Shown: positions 6,400-25,149 of the stretch, one piece after another | Position numbering within the stretch: the first letter of the stretch is position 1 | Layout: each line of letters starts with the position of its first letter | Assembly: GCF_009914755.1 (NCBI RefSeq) | Contig: NC_060930.1 | DNA length: 64,000 nucleotides | Reading direction: 5' to 3' (one strand) | Source of the DNA: the human T2T-CHM13v2.0 reference genome, Homo sapiens | Position numbers and translations under genes: made by a program | The notes under the pieces: generated by a model | What the model saw: only the letters and a program-made list of their open reading frames with translations | Databases searched by the model: none | Told to the model about the DNA's origin: nothing

Positions 6400-6570
6400 T
6401 TGGGGGAAGGATGGGAGGGGGGTGAGGGTTGAAGAAGTAAACATTGTACCTATTGGATACAATGTTTAATATTTGTGTGATGGGCACACTGGAAGCCCAA
6501 ACCTCACTATTACACAATACATTCATGTAACAAGCCTGCACATGCACCTCCTGAATCTATTTTTAAAAAT
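6400..6570 (+). mobile_element. Old primate L1 (L1PB/L1PA13-16-like) 3' end; target of the EIF3E retrocopy
   Basis: GGGCACACTGGAAGCCCAAACCTCACTATTACACAATAC..CATGTAACAAGCCTGCACATGCACCTCCTGAATCTA matches L1 3' termini. Confidence 0.7.
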
Positions 6571-6577
6571 TTAATTC

Positions 6578-8063
6578 TCTAGCACAGACTCCCTTTTTTT
6601 GGTAAGATGGCGGGGTACGACTTAACTACTCGCATCACGCACCTTTTGGATCGGCATCTAGTCTTTCCGCTCCTTGAGTTTCTCTCTGTAAAGGAGATAT
6701 ATAAAGAAAAGGAATTATTACAAGGTAAATTGGACCTTCTTAGTGATGCCAACATGGTAGACTTTGCTATGGATGCATACAAAAACCTTTATTCTGATGA
6801 TATTCCTCATGCTTTGAAAGAGAATAGAACCACAGTTGTTGCACAACTGAAACAGCTTCAGGCAGAAACAGAACTAATTGTGAAAATGTTTGAAGATCCA
6901 GAAACGACAAGGCAAATGCGGTCAACCAGGGATGGTAGGATGCTCTTTGACTACCTGGCGGACAAGCATGGTTTTAGGCAGGAGTATTTAGATACATTCT
7001 ACACATATGCAAAATTCCAGTATGAATGTGGGAATTACTCAGGAGCAGCAGAATATCTTTATTTTTTCAGAGTGTTGGTTCCAGCAACAGACAGAAATGC
7101 TGTAAGTTCACTCTGGGGAAAGCTGGCCTCTGAAATCTTAAAGCAGAATTGGGATGCAGACATGGAAGACCTTACATGGTTAAAAGAGACCATAGATAAT
7201 AATTCTGTGAGTTCTCCACTCCAGTCTCTTCAGCAGAGAGCATGGCTCGTTCACTGGTCTCTGTTTTCTTCAATCACCCCAAAGGTTGTGATAATATTGT
7301 TGATCTCTTCCTTTACCAGCCACAGCATCTTAATGTGTCCACACATTCTTCACTATTTGACTACAGCAGTCATAGCAAACAAGGATGTTCGAAAACGTTG
7401 GCAGGTGCTAAAAGATCTAGGTAAAGTTACTCAACAGGAGTCTTACACATATAAAGACCCAATTACAGAATTTGTTGAATGCTTATAGATTAACTTTGAC
7501 TTAGATGGGGCTAAGAAAAAGCTGAGAGAATGTGAATCAGTGCTTGTGAACGACTTCTTGGTGGCTTGTCTTAAGGATTTCATTGACAATGCCCATCTCT
7601 TCATATTTGAGACTTTCTGTCACATCCACCAGTGTATCAGCATTAACATGTTGGCAGACAAATTGAACATGACTCCAGATGAAACTGAAAGGTGGATTGT
7701 AAATGTGATTAGAAATGCAAGACTGGATGCCAAGATTGATTCTAAATTAGGTCATGTGGTTATGGTAACAATGTACTCTCACCCTATCAGCAAGTGATTG
7801 AAAAGACCAAAAGCCTTTCTTTTAGAAGCTAGATTTTGGCCATGAATATTGAGAAGAAACTTAATGACAATAGCAGGTCAGAGGCTCCTAACTGGGCAAC
7901 TCAAGATTCTGGCTTCTACTGAAGAAACATAAGGAAAAGATTTTAAAAAAACTCTAAAAGAAAGATGAAATAATAAAACTATTATATAAAGGGTGACTTA
8001 CATTTTGGAAACAACATATTGAGTGTAAATTGTGAAGAATTGGAATAAAATTGACTGATTCAA
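6578..8063 (+). pseudogene. EIF3EP1: EIF3E (Int-6) full-length processed pseudogene
   Basis: [32 protein letters not shown]... from 6607; frameshift after about codon 219; original stop TGA 7920-7922; AATAAA at 8044. 13-bp TSD AAAAATTTAATTC at 6565-6577 and 8064-8076 after a TTTT/AA site. Confidence 0.95.
6643..6685 (-). CDS. KHDC1: KHDC1 second coding exon (43 nt), antisense within EIF3EP1; encodes (E)[13 protein letters not shown](R)
   Basis: Acceptor ttttctttatatatctcctttacag| and donor AAG|gtgcgt. Phase 1 start matches the phase 1 end of exon 1. The peptide continues the recalled KHDC1 long-isoform sequence ...[21 protein letters not shown]... Confidence 0.85.
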
Positions 8064-8386
8064 AAAAATTTAATTCACAAAAAAATTTTAATCCTTTTGA
8101 GCTAATTATAGATTCACATGTAGTTGTAAGAAGTTACAAAGAGGCTAGGTGCAGTAGCTGACGCCCATGATCCCCGCACTTTGGGAGGCCGAGGCAGGCA
8201 GATCTCTTGAGGCCAGGAGTTTGAGACTAGCCTGGCCAACATGGCAAAACCCCATCTCTACAAAAAATTAGCAAAGCATGGTGGCACATGCCTGTAATTA
8301 CAGCTACTTGGGAGGCTGAGGCATGAGAATCACTTGACCTGGGATTACAAGTGTAATCCCAGCCATAGGCTGGGTGCAGTGGCTCA

Positions 8387-24099: not shown

Positions 24100-25149
24100 A
24101 GTGATCCTGAAAGATCCCGGAAGCGAAACTCGCCTTTCCGGGCACCTGGGTGAAGGAAGCTTTTCCTACCAGGGCCCCTAAAGCCACTCACCTCGATTTC
24201 TGCGGATCCAAAGGTGGAAAGACACTGTCCCGATCAGGAGCATCGCAAGGGTCTGGAGAAAGGGCCATCCATAAATGAAGATCAGGACTCCGTATTCTGA
24301 GACTGTTTCAATCACAAATAAGACTCGGAACAGCCTCTGGAAGGCCGACAGCATTTCGCGTTTCTGGCCTGGGAAAGTAAGGGTGCGCTAAGGCACGAGT
24401 AGTACAGCTCCTCCCGCCACCGCAGAGCCCGCCGGCGGGAAGAGACCAGACACCGACGGAGAAGCGAAGTTCAGGACGCGAAGGAAAGGGCCACTTCGGG
24501 TCGGGGTCAACCCAGACTGGACCAATGCACAGTCTAGGTGGATTAACGCGCCACCGCGAGAAGTGGGCACGGGACCACATGCGGCTGGCAAGACGTCCCA
24601 GGGCTCAAGCTCCAGGCTCGGTCACCAAACAACGGTGATAACATCCACAACGCCACGTAAACCATCTTTGGGCCTTGATCGTTTTCCAATAACCGACTGA
24701 ACTGAGGGCGTGACCAAACGACAAGAACCGGAGGAGAGGACCCGGAGAACGGAGCAGCATCCCGCCGCCCGCCTCCAGGAAAGCCCGAGGCACTGCAGCA
24801 GGAGGGTCTGGGCTCCGCGCCTTAATTACACCGCCCTGGACCCGCCTCTTCCGCCGCTCGCTCCTCTGACCGGCACCCGAAGGTGCTGTCCCGCCCACGG
24901 ACTCGCTCACACTCCGTTTCTTCGATCCTTTAGACGACTTTTTACCGTTCAGGGATGCTCTCCGTTACCGCCTCTGCCATTTGGTTGCCCTCCCTGCGGT
25001 CCAAGGGCCTGGAACACTCCCCAGGGCTGCCAGGCCAGCGCTTTCCAGGGGCTCCAGCCTACAGCGCCGCCACCTGGGGCTGGAGCCAGAAACGCAGGGG
25101 CCGGGGGCTCACCGGCTGCCAAGTAGAGGGCGTCGAAAATGGGGCTGGG
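24100..25149 (-). promoter_or_regulatory. KHDC1: KHDC1 promoter / 5' UTR CpG island (proximal half)
   Basis: CpG-dense unique sequence with GC boxes (CCGCCC) around and upstream of the first coding exon. The exact TSS is not determinable from sequence. Confidence 0.8.
24192..24354 (-). CDS. KHDC1: KHDC1 first coding exon (long isoform, hydrophobic N-terminus)
   Basis: ATG at 24354 (cgcgaaATG) encodes MLSAFQRLFRVLFVIETVSEYGVLIFIYGWPFLQTLAMLLIGTVSFHLWIRRNR plus 1 nt, then a strong donor GAG|gtgagt. Matches my recalled KHDC1 N-terminus. Not in the supplied ORF track. Confidence 0.9.

What the first reader, a model, noticed from the sequence alone, without database searches (positions are those of the whole stretch)
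6637..6715. KHDC1 coding exon built from the antisense strand of the EIF3E retrocopy, with retrocopy-specific changes on its splice signals
Seen: a 43-nt minus-strand exon (6685-6643) with a pyrimidine tract plus CAG acceptor and an AAG|GTGCGT donor, in frame with exon 1 about 17.5 kb away. Known/recalled: parental EIF3E reads ...RIAHFLD...EIYNEK, whereas this copy reads RITHLLD...EIYKEK. Inference: F>L (T>C at 6643) creates the exonic -1 G, and A>T (G>A at 6637) creates the +6 T, turning AAA|GTGCGC into AAG|GTGCGT. N>K (6705) adds a T to the polypyrimidine tract. The tract also appears to span the parental exon1/exon2 junction (recalled), so it would exist only in the spliced copy. This looks like step-wise exon birth from a 'dead' pseudogene read backwards.
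Basis: partly seen in the sequence, partly recalled or inferred. Interest (0 to 1): 0.9.

Follow-up and report, generated by a model that had tools for sequence, protein, structure and literature searches.

The report
Known KHDC1 exon from backwards EIF3E pseudogene
A small exon used by long KHDC1 transcripts is cut out of the reverse strand of a dead EIF3E retrocopy, and two later point changes strengthened its splice donor, but the exon itself was already described in 2008.

Summary
On the minus strand, 6685-6643 is a 43-nt exon with a ...tttacAG acceptor and an AAG|GTGCGT donor. It lies inside a full-length EIF3E retrocopy (6581-8060, + strand). Comparison with the parental EIF3E exons on chr8 of the same genome confirms every base-level claim. 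The parental antisense donor is AAA|GTGCGC. The changes at 6643, 6637 and 6705 are on the retrocopy side. The parental exon1|exon2 junction (6696|6697) lies 11 nt upstream of the exon, inside the pyrimidine tract.

Predicted U1 pairing rises from -2.7 to -7.1 kcal/mol. The exon is in frame between exon 1 (ATG 24354) and the KH-domain exons, and it contributes the basic stretch [14 protein letters not shown]. The same peptide is in ape UniRef KHDC1 proteins.

The case is already in print: Baertsch et al. [quoted passage not shown] They report it open in chimp and rhesus, and present in marmoset with a splice-site indel. Only the naming of the donor-making substitutions is new.

Two caveats apply. 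The selected RefSeq transcript lacks the exon. The "tract exists only in the spliced copy" claim is weakened, because the parental genomic antisense strand is equally pyrimidine-rich (but C-rich). Step-wise causality is untested.

The parts
6643..6685 (-). 43-nt internal exon of long KHDC1 / C6orf147 / KHDC1-KHDC1L transcripts. It gives 13 whole codons and 2 split codons ([15 protein letters not shown]) and is wholly antisense to parental EIF3E exon 1 (codons 13-26).
   Evidence: hub gene table
6637..6642 (-). Intronic part of the donor, GTGCGT. The +6 T (6637) is retrocopy-derived by a CpG transition. The exonic -1 G is 6643.
6686..6715 (-). Acceptor CAG (6688-6686) with its pyrimidine tract. 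6686-6696 is antisense of the parental exon 1 end and 6697-6715 is antisense of the parental exon 2 start. 6705 is the retrocopy-side A>T (minus strand).
6581..8060 (+). EIF3EP1: a full-length processed EIF3E copy. All 13 parental exon segments align without introns. It has 80 substitutions in 1474 aligned sites and a broken frame.
6565..6579 (+). 5' copy of the 15-bp target-site duplication (14 of 15 identical to 8064-8078).
   Evidence: read by eye
8064..8078 (+). 3' copy of the target-site duplication. AATAAA lies at 8044-8049, and the A tail is almost gone or merged with the A run.
   Evidence: read by eye
24192..24354 (-). Coding part of the upstream exon 1 (54 codons plus 1 base; hydrophobic), with donor CGAG|gtgagt.

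Best explanation
An L1-type retroposition put a full-length EIF3E cDNA copy, in reverse orientation, into what is now the long first intron of upstream-promoter KHDC1 transcripts. This happened in an early anthropoid. The reverse strand of the copy's first about 120 nt already carried a CAG preceded by a pyrimidine tract (the antisense of the purine-rich codons KEIYNEKE) and, 43 nt downstream, a very weak GT site (AAA|GTGCGC). Two transitions in the pseudogene lineage turned that site into AAG|GTGCGT: T>C at 6643 and a CpG G>A at 6637. One transversion at 6705 removed a purine from the tract. The spliceosome now includes the 43 nt as an internal exon. The exon joins a new hydrophobic exon 1 in frame to the KH-domain exons, adding a 15-residue, strongly basic linker (7 K/R). 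The same exon also rides in non-coding transcripts. Shown: the anatomy, the direction of the substitutions, the frame, annotation and published cDNA/EST support. Inferred: that the substitutions were needed for inclusion, that they were neutral accidents rather than selected, and that the long protein is made and matters.
For: The sequence and splice sites were read directly. Parental EIF3E exons were found in the same genome (25 matches, chr8 exon by exon). Alignments show AAA|GTGCGC in the parent and place the junction at 6696|6697. In the PDB, 4 of 4 matched eIF3e sequences gave E about 1e-132, and the printed best alignment has A11, F13 and N33 where the copy has T, L and K. The old chr3 retrocopy keeps -1 A and +6 C. 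U1 duplex energies are: parent -2.7, -1G alone -5.3, +6T alone -2.7, both -7.1 kcal/mol. The used donor ranks 3rd of 86 GT sites on the copy's antisense strand. The acceptor tract has 16 of 20 pyrimidines and ties for 3rd-7th of 97 AG sites. The spliced frame is open and carries the same exon-2 peptide as gorilla UniRef KHDC1 (237 aa; a 90% cluster of 13 members). Gibbon has its first 11 residues. A 15-bp target-site duplication and AATAAA are present. Baertsch et al. 2008 report 2 spliced mRNAs and 5 spliced ESTs for this exon, open in chimp and rhesus, and present in marmoset with a splice-site indel.
Against: The selected RefSeq transcript lacks the exon, and the exon is also in NR_ records (hub table). 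The one Macaca fascicularis UniRef model has a different 7-residue insert here instead of this exon. The gibbon model leaves the exon at another point. The N-terminal extension changes fast: 5 of 54 residues differ between human and gorilla in exon 1 against 0 of 102 in exons 3-4 (Fisher p = 0.004). That argues for weak constraint on the long isoform. Substitutions are not enriched on the splice signals: 5 lie in 6637-6715, 3 of them on signal positions, which by my own count make up about 32 of those 79 nt (substitution positions). The donor is still only moderate (-7.1 against -11.9 for the exon 1 donor and -14.0 for the consensus). The chr2 old retrocopy is too diverged to polarise the donor. 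No RNA-seq, MaxEntScan or SpliceAI was available.
Confidence: 0.8

Rival explanations
1. The exon is real at RNA level but has no protein-level role. It is a leader or lncRNA piece of upstream-promoter transcripts (C6orf147, the KHDC1-KHDC1L read-through), and the long ORF is open by luck.
For: The hub table shows the exon in NR_027005.4 and NR_173145.1 and absent from the selected NM_030568.5. Two of the 3 frames of the 43 nt are open. Exon 1 residues diverge 5 of 54 from gorilla against 0 of 102 in the KH part. The macaque model swaps in another mini-exon.
Against: The frame is kept across three splice junctions for 171+ codons. The same peptide is kept in the gorilla and gibbon models. The ORF is reported open in chimp and rhesus. 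Exon 1 has a hydrophobic stretch (19-residue Kyte-Doolittle mean 1.98 at residues 23-41) followed by a basic run, a membrane-anchor-like layout.
Confidence: 0.4
2. The three substitutions were fixed one after another by positive selection for inclusion of the exon (adaptive step-wise exon birth).
For: All three changes go towards consensus. The two other changes inside the exon (6672, 6678) are silent in the KHDC1 frame: AAT>AAC and AGA>AGG, read.
Against: Empirical neutral rates in this same copy are 9 of 38 CpG sites and 40 of 1433 non-CpG sites with a transition. These give about 0.7% for both donor changes at one given site. [quoted passage not shown] (abstract passage). There is no excess of changes on signal positions. 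The N-terminal extension is weakly constrained. Polarity at 6678 is ambiguous, since both old copies differ from both.
Confidence: 0.12
3. The exon works as a trans-acting antisense RNA. It is a 43-nt stretch complementary to the EIF3E mRNA just after its start codon, carried by KHDC1/C6orf147 RNAs.
For: 40 of 43 exon bases are complementary to parental exon 1. Kubiak et al. 2020 list host-gene exons taken from antisense retrocopies as trans-NAT candidates in general (passages).
Against: The stretch is short and mismatched. There is no evidence of co-expression or of any effect, and none was tested here.
Confidence: 0.03

Closest known systems
EIF3S6/C6orf148, Type Ib example 4 of Baertsch et al. 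2008 (BMC Genomics 9:466, PMC2584115)
   Same: [quoted passage not shown] Support is 2 spliced mRNAs and 5 ESTs. The paper's general remark fits here: such tracts come from antisense purine-rich Lys/Glu/Gly codons (parental KEIYNEKE). Seen: passages plus the whole of section 10.
   Different: In the text I saw, the paper does not name the bases that make the splice sites. The supplements could not be opened.
Other antisense retrocopy cassette exons: RPL21 in BRCA1, CYCS in RORA (same paper)
   Same: An intronic processed pseudogene in reverse orientation supplies an in-frame, alternatively spliced internal exon. The splice sites are unrelated to those of the parent gene.
   Different: Here the new exon comes together with a new first coding exon and an alternative promoter.
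Exonisation of antisense Alu elements by single-base changes that create or strengthen a 5' splice site (recalled from the Alu exonisation literature; no call)
   Same: A silent retroposed sequence has a ready-made pyrimidine tract on its reverse strand, and point mutations push a near-miss donor over the threshold.
   Different: The source here is a protein-coding cDNA copy, not a SINE. The tract comes from purine-rich codons across a spliced exon junction, not from a poly(A)/poly(T) run.

Membership tests
Processed pseudogene (L1-mediated retrocopy) | Colinear with the spliced parental mRNA, introns absent | tested here: met
   13 parental exon segments on chr8 align end to end to 6581-8060 at 90.5-100% identity.
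Processed pseudogene (L1-mediated retrocopy) | Target-site duplication and 3' polyadenylation signal or tail | tested here: met
   The 15-bp direct repeat 6565-6579 / 8064-8078 is 14 of 15 identical, and AATAAA lies at 8044-8049. The A tail is nearly lost or merged with the repeat's A run (read by eye).
Processed pseudogene (L1-mediated retrocopy) | Disabled reading frame | tested here: met
   8 stops in the parental frame, which is also lost after about residue 220.
Antisense retrocopy-derived exon of a host gene (Baertsch Type Ib) | Exon boundaries inside the retrocopy on the opposite strand, with canonical AG/GT that do not coincide with parental splice sites | tested here: met
   AG at 6687-6686 and GT at 6642-6641. 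The parental junction is at 6696|6697, 11 nt upstream of the exon.
Antisense retrocopy-derived exon of a host gene (Baertsch Type Ib) | Spliced transcript evidence | not testable with these tools
   No RNA data were available here. This rests on the RefSeq BestRefSeq records in the hub table and on 2 mRNAs plus 5 ESTs reported in PMC2584115.
Antisense retrocopy-derived exon of a host gene (Baertsch Type Ib) | In frame with the host coding exons | tested here: met
   Exons 1-4 spliced in a script give 171 codons with no stop, matching gorilla P0002.
Splice site created by post-insertion mutation | The derived state is in the retrocopy and the ancestral state in the parent and an outgroup | tested here: met
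   The parent has -1 A and +6 C, and the chr3 old copy has the same. Parental A11, F13 and N33 appear in the PDB eIF3e alignment. The chr2 copy is uninformative at the donor.
Splice site created by post-insertion mutation | The mutation changes splicing | tested here: inconclusive
   Only a U1 pairing proxy was available (-2.7 to -7.1 kcal/mol). No MaxEntScan, SpliceAI, minigene or orthologue DNA.

The most novel reading that the evidence does not exclude
After lying silent for many millions of years, the reverse strand of EIF3EP1 was switched on as an exon in catarrhines, chiefly by the -1 A>G change. The +6 change adds pairing only once -1 G is present. The resulting isoform tethers human KHDC1 to a membrane through a new N-terminal hydrophobic exon plus the basic linker from the pseudogene. 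This would be a convergent route to what mouse KHDC1A is predicted to do with a C-terminal transmembrane helix (passages of PMC2938380).
Probability: 0.15. Interest if true: 0.45.

Novelty: already known. Interest (0 to 1): 0.2.

Why it matters
This is a clean, fully traceable textbook case of new coding sequence arising from a dead pseudogene read backwards, with parent and copy in the same genome. The acceptor was largely ready-made from purine-rich codons joined by splicing. The donor needed two ordinary transitions. The principle and this very locus are in print since 2008, so the value lies in the added base-level detail and in a ready minigene design, not in a new phenomenon.

Tried and rejected
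1. Translating the whole retrocopy for the PDB search failed on stops. I used the open first 218 codons instead.
2. I looked in the human KHDC1 region for the macaque insert DKQEFKQ. There was no hit at up to 1 mismatch in the last 6 residues. At up to 2 mismatches there were 16 hits. Most are Alu-like (QEFK) or simple repeats, and one has splice-like flanks. It is a different mini-exon, not part of EIF3EP1.
3. The old chr2 EIF3E retrocopy was tried as an outgroup but is too diverged at the donor to use. The chr3 copy was usable.
4. I considered that the exon might be hominoid-specific, from the macaque model. I rejected this as unsupported: it is a single model, and PMC2584115 reports the ORF open in rhesus.
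5. Paper searches gave nothing on the splice-site bases. 'EIF3EP1' returned 0 papers. 'KHDC1'+'EIF3E' returned 2 irrelevant papers. 'C6orf147' returned 5, judged unrelated from titles and abstract starts only. 'C6orf148' returned 5, of which only PMC2584115 is relevant by title or abstract start.
6. Earlier findings of this scan were not open.
7. A third protein-database search for shorter primate fragments was not spent, because proteins cannot show the intronic +6 base.

Full report
**What is there.**
The minus strand reads ...ttccttttctttatatatctcctttacAG, then 43 nt (6685-6643), then GTGCGT (6642-6637). These are the ends of the RefSeq exon 6643-6685 in the hub table. That exon belongs to non-selected KHDC1 transcripts, to C6orf147 (NR_027005.4) and to the KHDC1-KHDC1L read-through (NR_173145.1). 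The upstream exon ends CGAG|gtgagt at 24192, so the intron is 17,506 nt.

**The retrocopy.**
- A search of the window's own genome with 6594-8060 found the parental EIF3E exon by exon on the minus strand of chr8, plus older partial copies on chr2 and chr3 (25 matches).
- A local BLAST places 13 parental exon segments end to end on 6581-8060 at 90.5-100% identity.
- There are 80 substitutions in 1474 aligned sites: p = 0.054, Jukes-Cantor 0.056, non-CpG only 0.050.
- The parental frame carries 8 stops and is lost after about residue 220.
- A 15-bp direct repeat flanks the copy (6565-6579 and 8064-8078, 14 of 15 identical), and AATAAA lies at 8044-8049 (read by eye).
- With a recalled primate neutral rate of about 1-1.2e-9 per site per year, 5-5.6% gives roughly 40-55 million years. 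This fits the published presence of the copy in marmoset.

- The first 218 codons match PDB human eIF3e at E = 2e-132. The printed alignment shows E3G, A11T, F13L and N33K in the copy.
- Against chr8 exon 1 and exon 2 DNA, the + strand changes are 6637 G>A (a parental CpG), 6643 T>C and 6705 T>A.
- On the minus strand the parental donor AAA|GTGCGC has become AAG|GTGCGT, and a purine 20 nt upstream of the exon has become T.
- The old chr3 retrocopy keeps -1 A and +6 C. The chr2 copy is too diverged there to use. So the derived states belong to the EIF3EP1 lineage.
- Parental exon 1 ends at window 6696 and exon 2 starts at 6697. The last 11 nt before the exon (ctcctttacag) are antisense of exon 1, and the rest of the tract is antisense of exon 2.

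**How much the changes matter.**

| Donor state | RNAduplex energy against the U1 5' end (kcal/mol) |
|---|---|
| Parental site | -2.7 |
| -1 G alone | -5.3 |
| +6 T alone | -2.7 |
| Both changes | -7.1 |
| KHDC1 exon 1 donor | -11.9 |
| Perfect consensus | -14.0 |

- The used donor ranks 3rd of 86 GT sites on the copy's antisense strand.
- In this proxy the -1 change is the main step, and the +6 change helps only once -1 G is present.
- The tract at -23..-4 has 16 of 20 pyrimidines (12 T). The antisense of the parental mRNA has 15 of 20 (11 T). The antisense of the parental gene, which runs into intron 1, also has 15 of 20 but only 5 T.
- So splicing of the parent made the tract T-rich rather than creating pyrimidine richness. 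The claim 'only in the spliced copy' is only half right.
- The acceptor ties for 3rd-7th of 97 AG sites by this crude count.
- By eye, the 6705 change also completes the only strict yUnAy pentamer (tttat, A at 6702, -17). The branch-point consensus is recalled, so this is a weak point.

**Chance or selection.**
- Within this copy, 9 of 38 parental CpG sites and 40 of 1433 other sites carry a transition.
- The prior chance of both donor changes at one given site is therefore about 0.7%.
[quoted passage not shown], a few such accidents are expected.
- Five substitutions fall in 6637-6715, and three of them are on signal positions. By my own count, signal positions make up about 32 of the 79 nt (substitution positions). 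That is no excess.
- The two other changes inside the exon (6672, 6678) are silent in the KHDC1 frame. Two sites carry no weight, and the polarity of 6678 is unclear.
- I read the changes as neutral decay that happened to make a usable donor.

**Coding status.**
- Exon 1 codes 54 residues from ATG 24354 and ends in phase 1.
- Joined in a script to the 43-nt exon and to the next two exons, the frame stays open for 171 codons. Those two exons were found through the Pfam PF16005 hits at chr6:74418731-74419153 and read in L013.
- The exon supplies [15 protein letters not shown]: 15 residues touched, 7 K/R and 1 acidic.
- A database search with the exon 1 peptide returned 3 proteins among 33 candidates. 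A second search with residues 1-80 of the gorilla protein returned the same 3 among 7 candidates.

| Protein | Length | State of the exon-2 peptide |
|---|---|---|
| Gorilla KHDC1 (cluster of 13 members) | 237 aa | Same exon-2 peptide |
| Gibbon model | 252 aa | First 11 residues, then a different junction |
| Macaca fascicularis model | 243 aa | DKQEFKQ in its place |

- The human counterpart of the macaque insert is a 22-nt candidate exon with acag|...|gtatgc flanks at window -24796..-24817.
- Such primate models may be projected from human annotation, so they are weak evidence of splicing.
- Against gorilla, exon 1 differs at 5 of 54 residues, exon 2 at 0 of 15, and exons 3-4 at 0 of 102 (Fisher p = 0.004). 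Gibbon gives 4 of 40 against 0 of 102. Macaque gives 5 of 54 against 1 of 102.
- The N-terminal extension is thus much less constrained than the KH part.
- Exon 1 has a hydrophobic stretch (19-residue Kyte-Doolittle mean 1.98 at residues 23-41) followed by the basic run. This is a membrane-anchor-like layout.
- Mouse KHDC1A is reported to carry a predicted C-terminal transmembrane helix (passages of PMC2938380).
- The selected transcript NM_030568.5 has no exon in the window (hub table), so the exon belongs to a secondary isoform.

**What is known.**
- Baertsch et al. [quoted passage not shown] I take the column order chimp, orangutan, rhesus, marmoset from the header of Table 3 and from the text.
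[quoted passage not shown] - EIF3S6 and C6orf148 are older names of EIF3E and KHDC1. This equivalence is recalled, but it is consistent with the locus, the 15 residues and the 237/238 aa length.
- The paper also notes that such tracts come from antisense purine-rich Lys/Glu/Gly codons, which fits here.
- In what I could read, it does not name the substitutions.
- Kubiak et al. 2020 (passages) count 18 retrocopies contributing to host coding sequence, and do not name KHDC1 or EIF3E in the main text.
- Searches for EIF3EP1 (0 papers), KHDC1+EIF3E (2, irrelevant), C6orf147 (5, judged unrelated from titles and abstract starts) and C6orf148 (5, only Baertsch relevant by title or abstract start) found no base-level account.

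**Verdict.**
- The sequence-level inferences are confirmed. Causality and order remain inferred.
- One sub-claim is weakened, and the coding status is conditional.
- The phenomenon and this very locus are already published. Only the splice-site substitution detail is an increment.

Noticed in passing
window 6570-6583, + strand: The retrocopy is also exonised on its sense strand. The hub table gives a KHDC1-AS1 exon starting at 6583. The AG before it (6581-6582) is the first two aligned bases of the retrocopy. The pyrimidine run before that (tttaattctct) is flank and target-site duplication.
   Followed up: partly
L015:5283-5304 minus strand (window -24796..-24817; chr6:74437183-74437204): A 22-nt candidate mini-exon (acag|...|gtatgc) keeps the same phase as the 43-nt exon. 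In human it would read D-KQVFKK-R. Its macaque counterpart (DKQEFKQ) replaces the EIF3EP1-derived exon in the one M. fascicularis UniRef model, P0003. I do not know whether it is annotated in human.
   Followed up: partly
window 24192-24354, minus strand: The exon 1 peptide of the long isoform changes unusually fast among primates: 5 of 54 residues differ between human and gorilla, against 0 of 102 in the KH-domain exons. Baertsch et al. call this exon 'from an unknown source'.
   Followed up: partly
P0004 (gibbon model), residues after GKTRC: The gibbon KHDC1 model leaves the retrocopy-derived exon early and reads through 31 extra residues upstream of the next exon. That stretch is open in human too (L013 ORF 1069-1500). 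This is either a different donor in gibbon or a modelling artefact.
   Followed up: no
G000:C2:165030845-165031336: A younger partial EIF3E 3'-end copy (93-95% identity) lies on chr2 as two adjacent pieces on opposite strands, which suggests an inverted or rearranged retrocopy fragment.
   Followed up: no
window 24640-24760, minus strand: In the transcript form with the long exon 24192-24799, an upstream ATG at 24760 opens a short ORF ahead of the main ATG at 24354 (read by eye). This could damp translation of the long isoform from that form.
   Followed up: no
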